A stretch of DNA of 40,052 nucleotides, taken from IMG/VR virus record IMGVR_UViG_2541047786_000001; one strand, written 5' to 3'. Source of the stretch: a virus. Lineage: Duplodnaviria > Heunggongvirae > Uroviricota > Caudoviricetes. Made by a program: the position numbers and the translations under genes. Below are positions 3,171 to 18,913 of this stretch, piece by piece. The notes below the pieces were generated by a model. The model saw only the letters and a program-made list of their open reading frames with translations. It made no database searches and had not been told where the DNA came from. How positions within the stretch are numbered: the first letter of the stretch is position 1; every line of letters begins with the position of its first letter.

Positions 3171-4318
<1,148 letters not shown>

Positions 4319-7950: not shown

Positions 7951-8166
7951 ATGAGCAACCTACGAAAATATCGAGAGTCACTGAATATCTCTCAAACAAC
8001 ACTTGCTAAGGCAGTTGGATGCACACAGGGAGCTATCGGACATTGGGAATCTGGTCGTCGCTTCCCAGACCTTAAAACATGCCGTGCTCTTGTTGCGTGC
8101 CTAAACAAGTTAGGCGCAAAAGTCAGTCTTGATGACGTGTTCCCGCCGGAACACAAAGCCGCTTAA
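7951..8166 (+). CDS. cro: Cro-like HTH repressor
   Basis: 71-aa protein from ATG 7951 with GGAGGG 3 nt upstream. HTH segment ISQTTLAKAVGCTQGAIGHWESG. Divergent from cI across the operator region. Confidence 0.75.
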   Translation: MSNLRKYRESLNISQTTLAKAVGCTQGAIGHWESGRRFPDLKTCRALVACLNKLGAKVSLDDVFPPEHKAA

Positions 8167-8176
8167 TAAGCGGATC

Positions 8177-8222
8177 CGCTCTTTGTAACAACGGACATTC
8201 GTCCTACGTCGCTGAAAAGCGA
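8177..8222 (+). promoter_or_regulatory. nutR candidate: boxA CGCTCTTT (8177-8184) and boxB hairpin TCGCTGAAAAGCGA (8209-8222)
   Basis: boxA is close to the lambda boxA CGCTCTTA. boxB is a 5-bp stem with a GAAA loop, like the lambda boxB architecture. Positioned between cro and cII as in lambda. Confidence 0.5.
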
Positions 8223-8307
8223 GTTCCAAGATATCTGACCAACTAAGGCCATATGCGTTTCCACGCATACCTTTCAACTAACTATTCACTATTGGAAATC
8301 TTAAGAA

Positions 8308-8604
8308 ATGGAAAGAACAAGTTACAGCAAACTATCACAGCGTGACGTTGATCGCGCAGAAACAGATTTACTTATCAATCTGTCAGCTATTACCCAGCGC
8401 GGTCTGGCAAAGATGATTGGCTGTCATGAATCGAAGATAAGCAGAACGGACTGGAGATTTATTGCTTCGGTCTTGTGTGCTTTCGGAATGGCATCAGACA
8501 TCAGTCCGATTAGCAGGGCTTTTAAGTATGCGCTTGATGGACTCACCAATAAAAAACGCCCGGCGGCAACCGAGCGTTCTGAACAAATCCAGATGGAATT
8601 CTGA
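8308..8604 (+). CDS. cII: CII transcriptional activator (hybrid: divergent N-terminus, lambda-identical C-terminus)
   Basis: 98 aa. The C-terminal LTNKKRPAATERSEQIQMEF matches the lambda CII C-terminus as I recall it; the N-terminal two-thirds differ. Confidence 0.85.
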   Translation: MERTSYSKLSQRDVDRAETDLLINLSAITQRGLAKMIGCHESKISRTDWRFIASVLCAFGMASDISPISRAFKYALDGLTNKKRPAATERSEQIQMEF

Positions 8605-13439: not shown

Positions 13440-14522
13440 TTAGAACTGATAAACCAGACCTACAGCGACGATGTCGTCGGTATCAATACCAGCTGTTTTG
13501 GTAAACTTACTATCGTCAATTAAGTTGATTTTGTAATCAACAAAAGTGGACATGTTTTTATTAAAGTAGTAAGTAGCACCGACATCGACATACTTGACTA
13601 AGTCTCGGTCACCATGAACACCAAGGTCTTTACCTTTTGACTGAAGGTAAGCAACAGATGGACGCAGACCGAAGTCAAACTGATATTGTGCTACTGCTTC
13701 AAAGTTTTGTGCTTTGTTTGCAATATGGTTATTACCAAAAACGGTCATATTCTGAGTTTCAGAATATGTGGTAGCCAGATAGATATTGTTCGCATCATAT
13801 TTCAGGCCTGCAGCCCATACTTCCGCATTTTTGCCGGAGGCATTGAATTTGCTCTTACCATAGGCGACCTGACCGTCAGTGCGATCTGATTTAGCATAGG
13901 TTGCACCCACGCCGAATCCTTCATACTCATAAGTAGTGGAGAAACCGAAACCATCACCATTGGCTTCAGTTACGTCAGTGCGGTCATTTTTACCCTGATA
14001 CTGAGCAGCAAAGTTCAGGCCATCGACCAGACCAAAGAAGTCGTTGTTACGATAAGTTGCAACACCAGTAGTGCGACCAGTCATGAACACATCTGTTTGG
14101 GTCCAGGTATCACCACCGAATTCTGGCAGAACGTCAGTCCACGCACCGATGTCGTATGCTACACCGTAGTTACGGCCGTAATCGATTGAGCCGTAATCAC
14201 CAAATTTCAGGCCTGCAAATGCAAGACGGGTTTTGTCTTTGGAAGAACCTTGAGATTCAGCACGGTTGCCTTTGAATTCATATTCCCACTGACCGAAACC
14301 AGTCAGTTGATCGTTGATTTGGGTTTCACCTTTGAAGCCAAGACGGGCATAAGTAGTATCACCATCATCTGCATCATTAGAGGAGAAGTAGTGCTTGGCA
14401 TTAACTTTCCCGTATAGATCCAGCTTGTTACTGTCTTTATTATAAATTTCAGCTGCCTGAGCAGACATCGCCATCAGTACTGATGCAGCTACAGCAGAAA
14501 TTGCCACTGTTAATTTTTTCAT
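13440..14522 (-). CDS. nmpC: Outer-membrane general porin (OmpC/NmpC/Lc family), phage-encoded moron
   Basis: 360 aa from ATG 14522, with signal peptide [23 protein letters not shown] and the C-terminal aromatic residue (VGLVYQF) typical of beta-barrel porins. The 20 extra N-terminal residues of the track ORF are excluded. Same position and orientation relative to Q and the lysis genes as nmpC in DLP12. Confidence 0.9.
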
Positions 14523-14949
14523 TGTACGCCCTTTTTTTGAACTTTTATTAAAAAATGATGTCACTGCGCGATAAATATTCATCTAATCAATGTGATTATT
14601 TCAAGATGTAAGTTTTAGTTTCTCATTTAATTTGTGAAGTAGATCTCTATTTTTATCTGAACCTTTTCTATCTAATCCTATTCATGGCTCTTGTCTGAAC
14701 AAAAATAAATCTATTAGCTAATTTATATTAATGGCACTTATTTATAAGTGCTCTATAATTCTTTAGCTTAATTTAAACAAACTAAAAATAACATCGGAAA
14801 TTATTAACTGGTTATTTGTTGAAGTTTTCTTATGCATTTGTGGTGGTGTTTTGAACACTCGGTGGCATTCTCACAAATATCATTTAGTAGTTTACGTACG
14901 TAAAAAATTGGTTATGCTGTTAAGAGTGGTTACTTCGTCACACAGCTTA

Positions 14950-15110: not shown

Positions 15111-15326
15111 ATGAAATCCATGGATAAGTTAACAACGGGTGTCGCCTATGGTACCTCAGCAGGTAGTGCCGGGTACTGGTTTTTACAGTTGCTCGATAAA
15201 GTCACGCCCTCACAGTGGGCGGCAATAGGTGTGCTGGGTAGCCTGGTATTTGGCCTGCTGACGTACCTGACAAACCTTTATTTCAAGATTAAAGAAGATA
15301 AGCGCAAGGCTGCGAGAGGTGAATAA
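15111..15326 (+). CDS. S: Class II holin / pinholin (phage 21 S21 type) with dual-start motif
   Basis: 71 aa ([26 protein letters not shown]...KRKAARGE), very similar to phage 21 S. Met1 and Met4 give the antiholin/holin dual start. Two transmembrane segments. Confidence 0.85.
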
Positions 15327-15823
15327 TGCCTCCATCATTACGAAAAGCCGTTGCTGCTGCTATTGGTGGCGGAGCAATTGCTATAGCATCAGTGTTAATC
15401 ACTGGCCCAAGTGGTAACGATGGTCTGGAAGGTGTCAGCTACATACCATACAAAGATATTGTTGGTGTATGGACTGTATGTCACGGGCATACAGGAAAAG
15501 ACATCATGCTCGGTAAAACGTATACCAAAGCAGAATGCAAAGCCCTCCTGAATAAAGACCTTGCCACGGTCGCCAGACAAATTAACCCGTACATCAAAGT
15601 CGATATACCGGAAACAATGCGCGGCGCTCTTTACTCATTCGTTTACAACGTGGGTGCTGGCAATTTCAGAACATCGACGCTTCTTCGCAAAATAAACCAG
15701 GGCGATATCAAAGGCGCATGTGATCAGCTACGTCGCTGGACATATGCTGGCGGTAAGCAATGGAAAGGTCTCATGACTCGTCGTGAGATTGAGCGTGAAA
15801 TCTGTTTGTGGGGTCAGCAATGA
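15326..15823 (+). CDS. R: SAR endolysin (T4-lysozyme-like muramidase with N-terminal signal-anchor-release domain)
   Basis: 165 aa. The N-terminal Gly/Ala-rich weakly hydrophobic segment [18 protein letters not shown] is a typical SAR domain. Start overlaps the holin stop (TAATG). Confidence 0.9.
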
Positions 15824-16281
15824 ACAGAGTAACCGCGATTATCTCCGCTCTGGTTATCTGCATCATCGTCTGCCTGTCATGGGCTGTTAATCATTACCGT
15901 GATAACGCCATTACCTACAAAGCCCAGCGCGACAAAAATGCCAGAGAACTGACGCTGGCGAACGCGGCAATTACTGACATACAGATGCGTCAGCGTGATG
16001 TTGCTGCGCTCGATGCAAAATACACGAAGGAGTTAGCTGATGCGAAAGCTGAAAATGATGCTCTGCGTGATGATGTTGCCGCTGGTCGTCGTCGGTTGCA
16101 CATCAAAGCAGTCTGTCAGTCAGTGCGTGAAGCCACCACCGCCTCCGGCGTGGATAATGCAGCCTCCCCCCGACTGGCAGACACCGCTGAACGGGATTAT
16201 TTCACCCTCAGAGAGAGGCTGATCACTATGCAAAAACAACTGGAAGGAACCCAGAAGTATATTAATGAGCAGTGCAGATAG
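15820..16281 (+). CDS. Rz: Rz i-spanin
   Basis: Start [17 protein letters not shown] at 15820 overlapping the endolysin stop (ATGA). N-terminal transmembrane segment and coiled-coil periplasmic domain. Confidence 0.85.
16040..16222 (+). CDS. Rz1: Rz1 o-spanin lipoprotein, embedded in Rz in the +1 frame
   Basis: 60 aa with lipobox LVVVGC and proline-rich [15 protein letters not shown]; matches lambda Rz1. Confidence 0.8.
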
Positions 16282-16312
16282 AGCTGCCCATATCGATGGG
16301 CAACTCATGCAA

Positions 16313-16606
16313 TTATTGTGAGCAATACACACGCGCTTCCAGCGGAGTATAAATGCCTAAAGTAATAAAACCGAGCAATCCATTTACGAATGTTTGCTGG
16401 GTTTCTGTTTTAACAACATTTTCTGCACCACCACAAATTTTTGCTGCATCGACAGTTTTCTTCTGCCCAATTCCCGAAACGAAGAAATGATGGGTGATGG
16501 TTTCCTTTGGTGTTACTGCTGTAGGTTTGTTTCCAACAGTAAACGTCTGTTGAGCACATCCTGTAATAAGCATTGCCAGAGCGGCAGAAAACAACATTTT
16601 TTTCAT
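16313..16606 (-). CDS. bor: Bor lipoprotein (serum-resistance, lysogenic conversion)
   Basis: 97 aa from ATG 16606 (MKKMLFSAALAMLITGCAQQ...EARVYCSQ), collinear with lambda Bor. Lipobox LITGC. Confidence 0.85.
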   Translation of the reverse strand: MKKMLFSAALAMLITGCAQQTFTVGNKPTAVTPKETITHHFFVSGIGQKKTVDAAKICGGAENVVKTETQQTFVNGLLGFITLGIYTPLEARVYCSQ

Positions 16607-17086
16607 CTTATTATCCTGCATTGTTAAAAACGGCAGAATCCTATGTGACAACAATTAAACGATAGTTAAATGGATTGATGAAAATTAAAACTACACAGGT
16701 GGGCTCAGACTATTGGAGGAAGTTGGGGACACTCAGAATCCTGTGGAATGAAATAAACCGGTCTATCCGTCCATTACCCTTTTAGCTGCGCTGTATCGTC
16801 GCCGTATTCCCGCATTAACCATGACCGTAGCCCGACGGGGAATTCCTTCTGCGTGAGTGTGCGGGAATAATTAAAAACGATGCACACCGGTTTTTTACCG
16901 CGTTAATGATTCGCGGGTTTATCCCGGTGCGATGGTGGAAGAAACAGGAAGCTGTATTACAGAAAGTGCTACTACTGTATCCCGATGCGATGTATGTAAT
17001 GTGAGTCAGATAATGGCACAGGATGTGGTGATGTGGCAGTCTGGAACACAGGATATATTGTCAGAATAAGACCCGTAGGAATAAAA

Positions 17087-17413
17087 ATGAAAAGACGCCT
17101 TTTACTACTTTTTCTGTTATCTGTCCTGGCAGTGGGATGCTCGCAGCAAAAAGCTGATGAGCCCCGGCAATTAGTGACGGTGTATCCACGATATCCGGAA
17201 TATGCTGCAGCAAATTATATCAAGGGGCTGGTTGAGGTTAAGTTCGATATTGGTGCTGATGGGACTGTGACACGGATCGTTTTTCTCCGCTCAGAGCCTC
17301 ATAATTTGTTTCGTGATGAAGTGGTGAAGGCCATGGCGAAATGGCGATTTGAAAAGAATCGCCCCTGTCAGGGAGTGAAGAGACAATTTATCTTTACGCC
17401 GTCACGTCCTTGA
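17087..17413 (+). CDS. Putative lipoprotein with TonB-C-terminal-like fold
   Basis: 108 aa from ATG 17087. Signal peptide plus lipobox MKRRLLLLFLLSVLAVGC. The YPRYPEYAAANYIKGLVEVKFDIGADGTV segment resembles the TonB C-terminal domain signature. Confidence 0.5.
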   Translation: MKRRLLLLFLLSVLAVGCSQQKADEPRQLVTVYPRYPEYAAANYIKGLVEVKFDIGADGTVTRIVFLRSEPHNLFRDEVVKAMAKWRFEKNRPCQGVKRQFIFTPSRP

Positions 17414-17505
17414 TGCTTCCAGGTAGAGAGGGGCTGGAAGCAGGAGAAAAATGAAAGAGCCAGCGGTTATATTTTTGTCATGGCTGACGAGGAATGATGG
17501 AAGAA

Positions 17506-17528
17506 GGCGTTGTATGCCACACAACGCC
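17506..17528. terminator. Hairpin between convergent genes (candidate bidirectional terminator)
   Basis: GGCGTTGT-atgccac-ACAACGCC with a T-rich stretch downstream on the top strand. Confidence 0.4.
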
Positions 17529-17535
17529 TCACTGT

Positions 17536-17889
17536 TCATTTCTTCTTTTTCTCTGGTGGAACCCGATGAATAAGAGTTGCACTGGTTTCCGATGAGATGG
17601 CGATATACTCGGGCAAAGTATGCTGGCAGTTTTCCAACTGGTCAAAAATACCTGCTCTCGTCTGTTGCAATGCCTGCAGCATGCGGCGGCAATGCGCCTT
17701 GCTTTTACTAACCATCTTTCCTTCCTCTATCAGTCGCTGCGTGAACTCATCATGGAATACCAGGTAAATGCGGATGTTATCGGTTTTGGCTACGCAGCAT
17801 AGTACAAAACGGACAGGTGCATCCCGGGACGGGGGAGGCGTCACATGTCCCTGTGATGGTTGTTCCGGGTAATGTACTGTGTGGGGCAT
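17536..17889 (-). CDS. Hypothetical protein (true start uncertain; overlaps alternative ORF 17777-18028)
   Basis: 117-aa ORF ending in KKKK. A different-frame ORF on the same strand (17777-18028) starts MKIRNILAISLATSSFSCLA, which is signal-peptide-like. I cannot decide which is real from sequence alone. Confidence 0.3.
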   Translation of the reverse strand: MPHTVHYPEQPSQGHVTPPPSRDAPVRFVLCCVAKTDNIRIYLVFHDEFTQRLIEEGKMVSKSKAHCRRMLQALQQTRAGIFDQLENCQHTLPEYIAISSETSATLIHRVPPEKKKK

Positions 17890-18176
17890 AAAAATGTCCG
17901 ATAATTTTACTTTCTACCGCAGTTAGTTGATTCGTTGGTCCTGGTAGCACATTGGGCGAGGATTTAAATGCCAGGCAACTGAAGGATGATGTCGCAAGGG
18001 AGATAGCGAGAATATTTCTGATTTTCATTTGATGATGCCTCTGTGTGAAATGACGGTAAACGACGCACTTGTGCCGGCACATAATAGCAAGCACCATAAT
18101 AGATCAGATTCGATTCTTGCTGTAAGTGATAATTATTCTCGTTTTCGGGTCCTTTCCGTCGATCCAACAGGTTACG

Positions 18177-18188
18177 GGGCGGCGACCT
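18177..18188 (+). other. cosN cohesive-end sequence GGGCGGCGACCT (lambda-type cos), with the cosB region extending to about 18360
   Basis: The context gttACGGGGCGGCGACCTCGCGGtttt matches the lambda cos junction and lies immediately upstream of nu1. Confidence 0.8.
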
Positions 18189-18364
18189 CGCGGTTTTTCA
18201 CTATTTATGAAAATTTTTCAGGGAAAATCGTGTCGGTACTTCTCGAATATAACTTTTTGTTTTTTTTAATATTGCATCCGTAAAGGTCCGACATGAAAGT
18301 GTCCGAAAATGCCTTTTTCTGGCGTTTTCATGTCGGGCCTTGTATTTGATAATGGGTTGTTTTC

Positions 18365-18913
18365 ATGAAGGTTAATAAAAAGAGGCTTGCCGAAATTTTC
18401 AACGTGGACCCGCGGACGATTGAACGCTGGCAGTCTCAGGGACTCCCTTGCGCCTCCAAAGGTAGTAAGGGCATTGAATCTGTATTTGATACTGCCATGG
18501 CAATTCAGTGGTATGCGCAGAGGGAAACTGATATCGAAAACGAAAAGCTCCGCAAAGAACTGGACGATTTGCGTGCGGCAGCGGAGTCAGATTTACAACC
18601 CGGCACCATTGACTATGAACGCTACCGGCTCACAAAAGCGCAGGCAGATGCGCAGGAACTGAAAAATGCCCGTGAAGACGGAGTAGTGCTGGAAACTGAA
18701 CTGTTTACCTTCATTCTGCAACGTGTGGCACAGGAGATTTCGGGGATACTTGTGCGTGTGCCGTTGACATTACAGCGTAAATATCCGGACATTTCACCAT
18801 CACACCTTGATGTGGTGAAAACTGAAATCGCGAAAGCCTCCAATGTTGCAGCTAAGGCCGGTGAAAACGTGGGCGGGTGGATCGATGATTTCAGACGCGC
18901 AGAAGGCAGCTAA
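18365..18913 (+). CDS. nu1: Terminase small subunit Nu1
   Basis: 182 aa. N-terminal winged HTH ([26 protein letters not shown]) and a central segment ENEKLRKE...[28 protein letters not shown] closely resembling lambda Nu1. Confidence 0.9.

What the first reader, a model, noticed from the sequence alone, without database searches (positions are those of the whole stretch)
16607..18176. Accessory region between bor and cos: TonB-C-like lipoprotein and ambiguous overlapping ORFs
Upstream of cos there is a lipoprotein gene (lipobox LAVGC) whose mature part resembles a TonB C-terminal domain. There are also two overlapping minus-strand ORFs (17536-17889 and 17777-18028), one of which begins with a signal-peptide-like sequence. 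A hairpin sits between the convergent genes. This is a common moron location next to bor. A TonB-like periplasmic domain on a phage lipoprotein could interfere with TonB-dependent receptors, which are frequent phage and colicin entry routes.
Basis: inference. Interest (0 to 1): 0.4.

Follow-up and report, generated by a model that had tools for sequence, protein, structure and literature searches.

The report
Phage 21 lipoprotein mimicking TonB's tip
The last 1.6 kb before the cos site of this phage 21-type prophage carries one well-supported gene, a small lipoprotein that is essentially a complete copy of the receptor-docking tip of the host protein TonB and probably acts as a decoy, while the overlapping reverse-strand ORFs beside it have no support as genes.

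Summary
The sequence observations hold. Window 16607-18176 is the right end of phage 21 (99.9% identical to OL657228.1) and occurs in 1208 of 5426 complete E. coli genomes.

The gene at 17087-17413 (+) encodes a 108-aa lipoprotein (lipobox LAVGC, Ser at +2) whose mature part is a complete TonB C-terminal domain:
- Pfam E=7e-13.
- AF2 pLDDT 88.
- Foldseek TM 0.91-0.92 and rmsd 0.9-1.5 A to E. coli TonB CTD, including TonB chains from the BtuB and FhuA complexes.

It lacks TonB's membrane anchor and proline-rich spacer. It is under purifying selection (dN/dS 0.12; no stops or indels in the copies examined). Relatives at 31-44% identity occupy the same lysis-to-terminase slot in Salmonella, Klebsiella and Rahnella prophages. 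The gene is already annotated ("TonB family protein"), but I found no functional study.

Best reading, inferred and not shown: an outer-membrane-tethered decoy that binds TonB boxes and dampens TonB-dependent entry of other phages and of colicins.

Both flagged minus-strand ORFs exist. They have no diverged homologues, their substitution patterns look neutral, and the annotation pipelines disagree about this stretch. Two hairpins lie between the convergent ORFs.

Side finding: a conserved, apparently structured about 100-nt element (16787-16895) shared with lambda, 933W and DLP12.

The parts
16313..16606 (-). bor/iss serum-resistance lipoprotein gene (left neighbour)
   Evidence: Pfam Lambda_Bor E=1.1e-30. 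RefSeq 'increased serum survival lipoprotein Iss'.
16787..16960 (+). Conserved non-coding element whose left edge at 16787 is where homology begins in many related loci. Core helices: 16793-16799/16877-16883 and 16805-16814/16860-16869, plus small hairpins. A second conserved block lies at about 16925-16950.
   Evidence: Found in 432 phage records including lambda, 933W and VT2-Sakai, and in K-12 DLP12. Unannotated there. No Rfam hit. RNAalifold and pair counts: 99.3% of cells paired, 3 pairs with compensatory change, and slid controls only 35-63% paired.
17060..17068 (+). Candidate extended -10 promoter element TGTCAGAAT (TGTTAGAAT in the CP-933N-type allele), 19 nt before the start codon
   Evidence: A conserved island in an otherwise diverged upstream region. 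A similar TGTTAGTAT lies upstream of the Salmonella homologue. Inference only; the consensus scan did not call it.
17087..17413 (+). Gene for the 108-aa TonB C-terminal-domain lipoprotein (phage 21 CPT_21_73; RefSeq WP_000830178.1)
   Evidence: Substitutions: 8 synonymous, 4 non-synonymous, 0 stops, 0 indels among copies. dN/dS 0.12 against the CP-933N-type allele.
17087..17140 (+). Lipoprotein signal peptide and lipobox L-A-V-G-C (Cys18), followed by Ser at +2
   Evidence: Read from the sequence. Lipobox Cys is invariant, and +2 is S/A/T, never Asp, in the E. coli, Salmonella, Klebsiella and Rahnella relatives.
17162..17401 (+). TonB_C domain (residues 26-105), corresponding to E. coli TonB residues of about 153-232 and including the beta3 strand that pairs with TonB boxes
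   Evidence: Profile alignment to PDB TonB chains. AF2 secondary structure E47-55, E61-70, H76-83, E94-103. Foldseek matches.
17415..17441 (.). Hairpin H1 (8-bp stem GCTTCCAG/CTGGAAGC) directly after the TonB-like stop codon
   Evidence: Stem-breaking SNPs in 19 and in 2 loci, so it is not strictly conserved.
17505..17529 (.). Hairpin H2 (9-bp stem AGGCGTTGT/ACAACGCCT), about 6 nt past the ORF117 stop on the minus strand
   Evidence: z=-3.3 for the interval on the minus strand.
17414..18126 (.). 'Segment X': a lineage-restricted stretch between the TonB-like gene and cosQ that holds all the ambiguous ORFs
   Evidence: Full-length copies are 99% identical or more in 1225 E. coli genomes; the only weaker hit listed is a short fragment. 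In the phage collection only 7 near-identical records hold it. It is replaced by other DNA in CP-933N-type phages.
17536..17889 (-). Its last 59 codons (17536-17715) form a sub-ORF with a good Shine-Dalgarno sequence (PHROG 4843).
   Evidence: 5 synonymous, 9 non-synonymous, 1 stop, 2 indels among copies. No family hit except a PHROG of unknown function covering only the last 59 residues. No Shine-Dalgarno sequence before the ATG at 17889 (read).
17777..18028 (-).
   Evidence: 4 synonymous, 5 non-synonymous, 1 indel. No family hit. Codon-usage score -0.15, in the range of spurious ORFs.
17620..17802 (+). ORF60, the ORF that PGAP and the phage 21 annotators call here (WP_000881610.1; PHROG 3744)
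   Evidence: 0 synonymous, 6 non-synonymous, a premature stop in 19 loci and 1 indel. Annotated shorter in those strains.
17451..17573 (+). ORF40, called only in the phage 21 record; it spans hairpin H2
   Evidence: 2 synonymous, 2 non-synonymous, 1 stop.
16932..17069 (+). ORF45, called only in the phage 21 record, upstream of the TonB-like gene
   Evidence: 1 synonymous, 2 non-synonymous, 1 stop. Not conserved in the CP-933N-type allele.
18147..18188 (+). cosQ (18147-18153) and the start of the cohesive end GGGCGGCGACCT (18177-18188)
   Evidence: cosQ mapped from the OL657228.1 annotation, and that record ends at window 18176. Sequence.

Best explanation
Identity: what is shown.
- Window 17087-17413 encodes a small lipoprotein that consists of a lipid anchor, a tether of about 8-14 residues and a complete TonB C-terminal domain (CTD).
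- It lacks TonB's N-terminal membrane anchor and its proline-rich spacer, so it cannot transduce energy.
- It is a conserved temperate-phage accessory gene placed between the lysis cassette and the packaging genes.

Mechanism: what is inferred.
- After Lol sorting (Ser at +2, no Asp) the protein sits on the inner leaflet of the outer membrane, next to the periplasmic face of TonB-dependent transporters.
- There its free beta3 edge binds TonB-box peptides by beta-augmentation. The targets would be the TonB boxes of the transporters, of incoming group B colicins, or both.
- Because it is not coupled to ExbB/ExbD, this binding is unproductive and competes with real TonB.
- The expected result is reduced TonB-dependent irreversible adsorption or entry of heterologous phages (T1/phi80 type), colicins and microcins, at some cost in siderophore and vitamin B12 uptake.
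- Because the gene is co-directional with the late operon, it would be made during lytic growth. It may also be expressed in the lysogen from a candidate extended -10 promoter just upstream.

The rest of the interval.
- DNA 17414-18126, including both flagged minus-strand ORFs, is a lineage-restricted filler with no supported protein-coding gene.
For: Domain identity:
- Pfam TonB_C E=7e-13 and TIGR01352 above its cut-off.
- A family profile against PDB sequences gives E=7e-32 to E. coli TonB, covering CTD residues 3-86 of the 90-residue construct.
- AF2 mean pLDDT 88. Foldseek top hits are 1u07, 2gsk (BtuB:TonB) and 2grx (FhuA:TonB), with TM 0.91-0.92 and rmsd 0.9-1.5 A.
- By my alignment to E. 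coli TonB numbering, the YP motif (Y163-P164) and F180, G186, F202, W213, Y215 (here Phe) and F230 are kept. The chain ends right after beta3.

Not a real TonB: the enterobacterial TonB equivalog models score 45-69 bits against cut-offs of 265-448, and only their C-terminal region aligns.

Real, selected gene:
- 8 synonymous and 4 non-synonymous changes, with no stops or indels among the copies.
- dN 0.18, dS 1.50 between the phage 21 and CP-933N alleles.
- Present in 1208 of 5426 complete E. coli genomes.

Recurrent phage moron: relatives at 31-44% identity, with lipoboxes, lie between the lysis genes and the small terminase in Salmonella, Klebsiella and Rahnella prophages whose lysis and packaging modules belong to different families.

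Outer-membrane sorting: +2 is S/A/T in all members examined, read with the +2 rule (established knowledge).

Precedent for the mechanism:
[quoted passage not shown] 2001, as cited in PMC9841981).
- The FhuA TonB box pairs with beta3 of the TonB CTD (PMC11658791).

Link to iron:
- The Salmonella homologue has a 15/19 match to the Fur-box consensus, containing GATAAT-T-ATTATC, next to a TGTTAGTAT -10-like element. Only 5 of 2000 shuffles do as well, and it is identical in 4 loci.
- In Klebsiella michiganensis/grimontii a chromosomal TonB_C-only gene is followed by a gene for a small stand-alone TolA_C protein. TolA's C-terminal domain is the other envelope domain that colicins and phages exploit.
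Against: - There are no data on expression, localisation or phenotype.
- The window's own upstream region has no Fur box (best match 11/19, no better than shuffles). The generic scan found no sigma-70 promoter upstream of the gene.
- TonB residues implicated in specific contacts are not conserved by my alignment (Q160 is Tyr here, R166 is Tyr).
- A block of all TonB-dependent transporters would cost the lysogen iron and vitamin B12.
- Phage 21's own receptor, LamB, is TonB-independent (PMC11336670), so this cannot be self-exclusion of the Llp or Cor type.
- No PADLOC defence model matches.
- PHROGs labels the family 'Rz-like spanin'.
- TonB_C domains also occur in many multi-domain proteins of unknown role, so the fold alone does not fix the partner.
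Confidence: 0.45

Rival explanations
1. The TonB_C fold is used as a generic periplasmic peptide-binding or peptidoglycan-binding module with a different partner, for example an envelope protein or the cell wall. The lipoprotein would then alter envelope properties unrelated to TonB-dependent uptake.
For: - phmmer finds 2795 TonB_C-containing proteins, many of them with 2-5 repeats or in non-TonB architectures.
- Chromosomal, non-phage members exist in Klebsiella and Gibbsiella.
- Q160 and R166 equivalents are not kept (my alignment).
Against: - The nearest sequence and structural relatives are enterobacterial TonB CTDs themselves, at 38-40% identity and including the forms bound to transporters.
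- The aromatic cluster and the beta3 edge are retained.
- The Salmonella copy carries a Fur-box-like site.
Confidence: 0.2
2. It is a lysogenic-conversion or virulence factor acting alongside iss/bor. By tuning TonB-dependent uptake or outer-membrane composition it would improve survival in the host, for example in serum or under iron restriction, rather than protect against phages or colicins.
For: - It sits next to iss in phage 21-type prophages of extraintestinal strains (Nissle 1917, ABU 83972, APEC O18, UM146, ST131).
- The Salmonella homologue has a Fur-like site.
Against: - The gene also occurs without bor/iss (Ecol_745 and JLK-2012).
- It also occurs in plant- or environment-associated Rahnella prophages.
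- It is co-directional with the late operon, whereas bor is on the opposite strand.
Confidence: 0.15
3. It is an accessory lysis protein (spanin-like), as the PHROGs label suggests: an outer-membrane lipoprotein made late that helps disrupt the envelope.
For: - PHROG 1267 is labelled 'Rz-like spanin', category lysis, E=5e-43.
- The position is immediately after the lysis cassette, on the late-operon strand, in four genera.
Against: - A complete Rz/Rz1 pair is already present in the window (15808-16281 and 16040-16222) and beside the Salmonella copy.
- There is no C-terminal transmembrane segment as in unimolecular spanins.
- The gene is not embedded in or overlapping an i-spanin gene.
- Pfam matches only TonB_C.
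Confidence: 0.05
4. Segment X (17414-18126) does encode something on the minus strand. Candidates are the 83-aa secreted peptide, the 59-aa protein (17536-17715), or a non-coding RNA ending at hairpin H2. It would be expressed in lysogens like bor.
For: - Good Shine-Dalgarno sequences precede the ATGs at 18028 and 17715 (read).
- ORF83 has a signal-peptide-like N-terminus.
- H2 lies about 6 nt after the shared stop codon.
- A promoter-like site lies at 18049-18021 on the minus strand.
- The segment is 99% identical or more across 1225 genomes.
Against: - No homologue below near-identity exists among 5.8 billion proteins or in the phage collection. The 'full-length' 142-165-aa hits are the same DNA with 1-bp indels at different places.
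- The synonymous to non-synonymous ratio is about neutral. There is a stop (E56*) and a frameshift in the two most diverged copies.
- Codon usage of ORF83 resembles that of spurious ORFs.
- PGAP and the phage 21 annotators call opposite-strand ORFs instead.
Confidence: 0.15
5. The TonB-like gene is a non-functional fragment of a captured host tonB gene, as the old EDL933-derived annotation 'partial tonB-like membrane protein' implies.
For: Older annotations call it 'partial' or a 'TonB fragment'.
Against: - dN/dS is 0.12.
- No stops or indels in the copies examined.
- It has acquired a lipoprotein signal peptide that is conserved across genera.
- Its syntenic position is conserved in four genera.
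Confidence: 0.03

Closest known systems
TonB C-terminal domain of E. coli TonB (PDB 1u07, 1xx3; complexes 2gsk with BtuB and 2grx with FhuA)
   Same: Same fold and clear homology: 38-40% identity, TM 0.91-0.92 and rmsd 0.9-1.5 A. The YP motif, the aromatic cluster and the beta3 strand that pairs with TonB boxes are retained.
   Different: It has no N-terminal transmembrane anchor for ExbB/ExbD coupling and no proline-rich spacer. Instead it has a lipoprotein signal peptide and a short tether. It ends just after beta3. It is encoded by a phage. It scores far below the TonB equivalog cut-offs.
Engineered periplasmic TonB fragments (Howard et al. 2001, J Bacteriol 183:5885, known to me through its citation in PMC9841981)
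   Same: A TonB periplasmic domain uncoupled from the inner-membrane motor. When overexpressed, such fragments inhibit iron import through TonB-dependent transporters. This is the mechanism proposed here.
   Different: Those fragments were artificial, soluble and overexpressed. This protein is natural, lipid-anchored (predicted to the outer membrane), much shorter and under selection in phages.
Phage superinfection-exclusion lipoproteins Llp (T5) and Cor (phi80, N15)
   Same: Llp is a small phage-encoded lipoprotein of the inner leaflet of the outer membrane that binds the TonB-dependent transporter FhuA. Cor inactivates FhuA (abstracts listed; PMC11436027).
   Different: No sequence relationship: Pfam finds only TonB_C. 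Llp and Cor block the phage's own receptor, FhuA. Phage 21 uses LamB, so any exclusion here would be of other phages and colicins, and potentially of every TonB-box-bearing protein.
Lambdoid morons at the lysis-cos junction (bor/iss; ybcV, ybcW and ylcI in DLP12)
   Same: Same genomic slot and the same modular, exchangeable character.
   Different: Different proteins. bor is on the opposite strand, whereas this gene is co-directional with the late operon.

Membership tests
TonB_C domain family (Pfam PF03544 / TIGR01352) | Profile score above the curated cut-off | tested here: met
   PF03544 49.2 bits against 24.6. TIGR01352 47.4 against 27.1.
TonB_C domain family (Pfam PF03544 / TIGR01352) | Alpha/beta fold of the TonB CTD with a three-stranded sheet and an exposed beta3 edge | tested here: met
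   AF2 model with pLDDT 97-98 over the domain. Foldseek TM 0.91-0.92 to 1u07, 2gsk and 2grx. This is a predicted structure, not a solved one.
TonB_C domain family (Pfam PF03544 / TIGR01352) | Conserved YP motif and aromatic residues (E. coli Y163, P164, F180, F202, W213, Y215, F230) | tested here: met
   By alignment (and my residue mapping) these correspond to Y36, P37, F53, F75, W86, F88 and F103. Y36, F75 and W86 are invariant, and P37 and F103 are at least 90% conserved, in the 21-sequence family alignment.
Functional TonB energy transducer (NCBIfam PRK10819 equivalogs) | N-terminal transmembrane anchor that couples to ExbB/ExbD | tested here: not met
   The N-terminus is a cleavable lipoprotein signal peptide ending in LAVGC. 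[quoted passage not shown]
Functional TonB energy transducer (NCBIfam PRK10819 equivalogs) | Proline-rich periplasm-spanning spacer and an equivalog-level score | tested here: not met
   Only about 8-14 residues lie between Cys18 and the domain. Scores are 45-69 bits against cut-offs of 265-448.
Bacterial lipoproteins sorted to the outer membrane | Signal peptide with a lipobox [LVI..][ASTVI][GAS]C and no Asp at +2 | tested here: met
   L-A-V-G-C, then Ser and Gln. The relatives have V-M-G-C, L-M-G-C, L-L-G-C, I-S-A-C and L-S-A-C, with S/T/A at +2. Pattern inspection only.
Bacterial lipoproteins sorted to the outer membrane | Actual lipidation and outer-membrane localisation | not testable with these tools
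   Needs globomycin or palmitate labelling and membrane fractionation.
Receptor-blocking exclusion lipoproteins (Llp, Cor) | Sequence homology to Llp or Cor | tested here: not met
   The Pfam scan returns only TonB_C. PHROGs returns phrog_1267 and phrog_34172 only.
Receptor-blocking exclusion lipoproteins (Llp, Cor) | Blocks entry through a TonB-dependent transporter from the periplasmic side | not testable with these tools
   Requires plating, adsorption and colicin assays.
Spanins (the PHROG 1267 label) | o-spanin gene embedded in, overlapping or adjacent to its i-spanin gene; or a unimolecular spanin with a lipobox plus a C-terminal transmembrane segment | tested here: not met
   A separate complete Rz/Rz1 pair is present. 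The protein ends ...FIFTPSRP with no hydrophobic C-terminal segment. The gene lies about 800 bp from Rz, beyond bor.
Protein-coding gene status of minus-strand ORF117 and ORF83 | Homologues beyond near-identical DNA copies | tested here: not met
   tblastn against phages finds only 7-8 records at 99% identity or more. In the search of 5.8 billion proteins, the aligned hits are the same DNA read with frameshifts, or error-laden copies of it.
Protein-coding gene status of minus-strand ORF117 and ORF83 | Excess of synonymous over non-synonymous change, and no disruptions | tested here: inconclusive
   ORF117: 5 synonymous, 9 non-synonymous, 1 stop, 2 indels. ORF83: 4 synonymous, 5 non-synonymous, 1 indel. 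The TonB-like gene in the same loci shows 8 synonymous, 4 non-synonymous and no disruptions. The counts are small.

The most novel reading that the evidence does not exclude
[quoted passage not shown] In Klebsiella michiganensis/grimontii one is paired with a stand-alone TolA C-terminal domain. In this reading they are carried by temperate phages of Escherichia, Salmonella, Klebsiella and Rahnella in the lysis-terminase slot, are in some lineages induced by iron starvation through Fur, and give broad protection against Ton-dependent phages, group B colicins and microcins. That would be a defence that mimics the hijacked host machine rather than blocking one receptor. Separately, the conserved element at 16787-16895 would be an undescribed structured RNA of the lambdoid late transcript, present in lambda itself.
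Probability: 0.3. Interest if true: 0.7.

Novelty: new variant of a known kind. Interest (0 to 1): 0.45.

Why it matters
TonB-dependent transporters are major entry gates for phages, colicins, microcins and siderophore-antibiotic conjugates.

A natural, phage-borne dominant-negative TonB tip would be a new way for a prophage to shield its host. It would mimic the energy transducer rather than modify one receptor. It is present in about a fifth of complete E. coli genomes, including Nissle 1917 and ST131 strains, and in a classic laboratory phage.

It could affect phage-therapy host range, colicin and microcin ecology, and susceptibility to 'Trojan horse' siderophore drugs.

It is directly testable with phage 21 lysogens and simple plating and uptake assays.

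The work also shows that annotations of the adjacent 700 bp disagree and that none of them is supported.

Tried and rejected
(1) Frameshifted-pseudogene idea. In strain 3385 PGAP calls a single 163-aa minus-strand gene that fuses the two flagged ORFs. The fusion comes from a 1-bp deletion in a G5 run, seen in 1 of about 65 loci compared. The 142-165-aa 'homologues' in the large protein database switch frame at different places, or are error-laden copies, so they are indel variants of the same DNA and not a diverged family. Rejected as evidence for an ancestral gene.

(2) svsR. This small RNA of the icd-integrated NC-SV prophage lies at the 3' end of cI, not in this region.

(3) Rfam. A scan of 16200-18500 at E up to 5 gave nothing credible.

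(4) Fur box upstream of the window's gene. Best match 11/19, no better than shuffles. A good site exists only upstream of the Salmonella homologue.

(5) PADLOC. No defence model matches any ORF.

(6) BFVD viral structure library. No match at E<=0.001.

(7) Codon-usage scoring. It discriminates poorly for morons. It favours ORF60+ (0.27), which nevertheless carries a premature stop in 19 loci.

(8) Literature. Searches for a characterised phage TonB-like lipoprotein, for accession WP_000830178 and for the CP-933N tonB-like gene found no functional study. Howard et al. 2001 (PMC99666) is not held in the library.

(9) Hairpins as intrinsic terminators. Neither has a proper U-tract. H1 carries stem-breaking SNPs.
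Full report
**Where the region comes from.** The window around the finding is the late region of a phage 21-type lambdoid prophage. It holds the S21 pinholin ORF (15111-15326), the SAR endolysin ORF (15326-15823), Rz/Rz1 (15808-16281 and 16040-16222), bor/iss on the minus strand (16313-16606), then the finding's interval, then the cos site and the terminase genes (18365 onward). Window 16607-18364 is 99.9% identical to the right end of phage 21 (OL657228.1). That record ends at window position 18176, so the cohesive end GGGCGGCGACCT starts at 18177. At least 80% of the stretch is present in 1208 of 5426 complete E. coli genomes, among them Nissle 1917, ABU 83972, UM146, APEC O18 and ST131 strains.

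**The lipoprotein is real and is a TonB C-terminal domain.** ORF 17087-17413 (+) encodes 108 aa that begin MKRRLLLLFLLSVLAVGC, followed by Ser and Gln.
- Pfam TonB_C matches residues 33-99 (49.2 bits, cut-off 24.6, E=7e-13). TIGR01352 also passes its cut-off.
- A profile of the family matches E. coli TonB chains in the PDB at E=7e-32 over essentially the whole 90-residue CTD construct. That profile included one true TonB fragment, P0198.
- An AlphaFold2 model built on a 21-sequence alignment has mean pLDDT 88, and 97-98 across the domain.
- The model's best Foldseek matches in the PDB are E. coli TonB CTD chains 1u07, 2gsk (the BtuB complex), 1xx3 and 2grx (the FhuA complex). Target-normalised TM is 0.86-0.92, rmsd 0.9-1.5 A and identity 38-40%.
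- Mapping onto E. coli TonB numbering (my alignment), the YP motif (Y163-P164) and F180, G186, F202, W213, Y215 (here Phe) and F230 are kept. The chain ends a few residues after beta3. According to PMC11658791, beta3 is the strand that pairs with the FhuA TonB box. Q160 and R166 are both replaced by Tyr.

**It is not a functional TonB.** The protein has no transmembrane anchor and no proline-rich spacer. The enterobacterial TonB equivalog models score only 45-69 bits against cut-offs of 265-448. It is therefore a TonB tip on a lipid anchor, not an energy transducer.

**The gene is under selection and recurs in phages.**
- Against the roughly 70%-identical allele of Stx1a phages, CP-933N and JLK-2012, dN is 0.18 and dS is 1.50, a ratio of 0.12.
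- A search of 1.84 billion representative proteins found a set of 107-133-aa proteins that consist of a TonB_C domain only, at 31-46% identity. Most carry a lipobox and none has Asp at +2. Their sources name Salmonella enterica, the Klebsiella pneumoniae complex, Rahnella, Erwinia/Pantoea, Gibbsiella and K. michiganensis/grimontii.
- The Salmonella, K. pneumoniae and Rahnella genes lie in prophages, co-directional with the late genes, between the lysis cassette and the small terminase gene. This holds although the holins, endolysins and terminases there belong to different families. That is the same slot as in the window.
- A complete Rz/Rz1 pair sits next to the gene in the window and in Salmonella. 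The PHROGs label 'Rz-like spanin' for this family (phrog_1267) is therefore most likely a mislabel.
- Non-phage members also exist. In K. michiganensis/grimontii, a chromosomal TonB_C-only gene is followed directly by a gene for a 130-aa protein with a TolA_C domain and a lipobox-like signal.

**How it most likely works (inference).**
- The 8-14-residue tether would hold the domain at the periplasmic face of TonB-dependent transporters.
- A TonB CTD uncoupled from ExbB/ExbD can still bind TonB boxes by beta-augmentation but cannot pull on them. It should therefore compete with TonB.
- The precedent is experimental. [quoted passage not shown] 2001, as cited in PMC9841981). T1-type phages need TonB for irreversible adsorption (PMC11658791).
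- Phage 21's own receptor is LamB (PMC11336670). Any exclusion would therefore act on other phages and on colicins or microcins, unlike Llp and Cor, which block the phage's own receptor FhuA.

**Expression.** The gene is co-directional with the late operon. This orientation implies late expression by read-through. A conserved TGT(C/T)AGAAT extended -10-like element lies 19 nt upstream of the ATG in the window (17060-17068) and is also present in the diverged allele. The Salmonella gene has TGTTAGTAT followed by a 15/19 match to the Fur-box consensus that contains GATAAT-T-ATTATC; only 5 of 2000 shuffles match as well. This ties at least that lineage to iron starvation, when the transporters are derepressed. 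The window's copy has no Fur box, and the generic promoter scan called nothing upstream of it. I put 0.45 on the decoy mechanism. The identity of the protein is close to certain.

**The ambiguous ORFs.** Both minus-strand ORFs exist, but none of the evidence favours them as genes.
- tblastn against 50,697 phage records finds only the 7-8 records at 99% identity or more.
- The 5.8-billion-protein search with the fused 163-aa reading returned 142-165-aa 'full-length' proteins. When aligned, they are the same sequence switching frame at different points, or error-laden copies. They are 1-bp indel variants, not a diverged family. The strain 3385 fusion comes from a deletion in a G5 run.
- ORF117 has 5 synonymous and 9 non-synonymous changes, one nonsense variant, and a frameshift in the two most diverged copies. 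ORF83 has 4 synonymous and 5 non-synonymous changes and 1 indel.
- The plus-strand 60-aa ORF chosen by PGAP and by the phage 21 annotators has 0 synonymous and 6 non-synonymous changes, plus a premature stop in 19 loci.
- The pipelines disagree. PGAP calls ORF60+. The phage 21 record calls ORF45+, ORF40+ and ORF60+. The ev017 records annotate a 'FIG00640165' hypothetical protein over the ORF117 stretch. PHROGs holds families for both strands of the same DNA.
- If anything is translated, the best-looking candidates are the 59-aa sub-ORF 17536-17715 (-) and the 83-aa ORF. The sub-ORF has a strong Shine-Dalgarno sequence, and hairpin H2 follows its stop codon. The 83-aa ORF has a Shine-Dalgarno sequence and a signal-peptide-like start. 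Neither is supported by conservation.
- The whole segment 17414-18126 is a separate module. In CP-933N-type phages homology stops at the end of the TonB-like gene and resumes only at about 18127, near cosQ.

**Hairpins.** H1 (17415-17441) and H2 (17505-17529) are present, and the interval folds better than shuffles. Neither has a U-tract. H1 carries stem-breaking SNPs in many copies.

**A side observation within the finding's coordinates.** Homology of many related loci begins exactly at 16787.
- The roughly 110 nt that follow, together with a second block up to about 16960, are far more conserved than synonymous sites of the adjacent gene.
- The element occurs in 432 phage records, including lambda, 933W, VT2-Sakai and a Salmonella phage. 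It is also in K-12 DLP12 between borD and ybcV. It is unannotated in the lambda imm434, 933W and K-12 records I inspected.
- RNAalifold on 35 distinct versions predicts a 7-bp outer helix and a 10-bp inner helix. Pair counting gives 99.3% of cells paired, three pairs with compensatory change, and many C-to-U changes that keep G-U pairs only on the plus strand. The slid controls pair at only 35-63%.
- Caveats: part of the sample was collected with a pattern that fixes the 3' arm, one stem position varies freely, and the single-sequence z-score is weak.
- The element is not specific to the TonB-like gene. It marks the left edge of the variable moron slot.

**Novelty and verdict.** The gene is already annotated as a TonB family or TonB C-terminal domain protein, including in the 2022 phage 21 genome. 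Its existence is therefore not new. I found no functional study. The proposed role, an outer-membrane-tethered mimic of the TonB tip, is a new variant of known ideas: exclusion lipoproteins and dominant-negative TonB fragments. It can be tested in a classic phage. Interest is moderate at 0.45.

Noticed in passing
window 16787-16960 (core 16793-16883), + strand: A conserved non-coding element with predicted nested helices and some compensatory changes. It is shared by 432 phage records (lambda, 933W, VT2-Sakai, Stx phages, Salmonella phage S107) and by K-12 DLP12 (NC_000913.3 579009-579116, between borD and ybcV). It is unannotated in the records inspected, absent from Rfam, and marks the left edge of the variable moron slot.
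   Followed up: partly
L093-L096 about 7967-7985 (upstream of the gene at 8001-8333): The Salmonella enterica prophage homologue of the TonB-CTD lipoprotein has a 15/19 match to the Fur-box consensus (contains GATAAT-T-ATTATC) next to a TGTTAGTAT -10-like element. It is identical in four loci. No such site exists upstream of the window's gene.
   Followed up: partly
L219 6001-6378 and 6437-6829 (Klebsiella michiganensis/grimontii chromosome, between der and a yfgJ-like gene): A chromosomal pair of small secreted proteins: a stand-alone TonB_C domain followed directly by a stand-alone TolA_C domain with a lipobox-like signal. It may be a decoy pair for both envelope systems that colicins and phages exploit.
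   Followed up: partly
L004 about 3290-3312 and the other CP-933N-type loci (for example L069): In the CP-933N/Stx1a-type allele the -10-like TAGAAT upstream of the TonB-like gene is embedded in a perfect 8-1-8 palindrome, AGAATAAG-A-CTTATTCT. This looks like an operator. The window's allele lacks the right half because of a 13-nt difference.
   Followed up: no
L097 7379-7663 (Klebsiella pneumoniae prophage): An Acb2/Tad1-like gene (a family of anti-defence sponge proteins) sits two genes upstream of the TonB_C lipoprotein gene, in the same lysis-terminase moron slot.
   Followed up: no
window 17827-17836 (G5 run; deletion at about 17831 in L007): Homopolymer runs in segment X (this G5 run and the T-rich run near 17541-17551) produce different 'genes' in different assemblies. 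RefSeq WP_250386232.1 (163 aa) and several database proteins of 142-165 aa look like products of 1-bp indels.
   Followed up: yes
window 17087-17413; PHROG phrog_1267: PHROGs labels the TonB_C lipoprotein family 'Rz-like spanin' (category lysis). This is probably an annotation transferred because of its position. Complete Rz/Rz1 pairs sit beside the gene.
   Followed up: partly
window 13440-14582 (-): A 380-aa ORF lies upstream of the lysis cassette. RefSeq annotates a porin OmpC (nmpC-like) gene at the corresponding position of the Nissle 1917 prophage. That would be another envelope-modifying moron in the same prophage. I did not check that the two sequences correspond.
   Followed up: no
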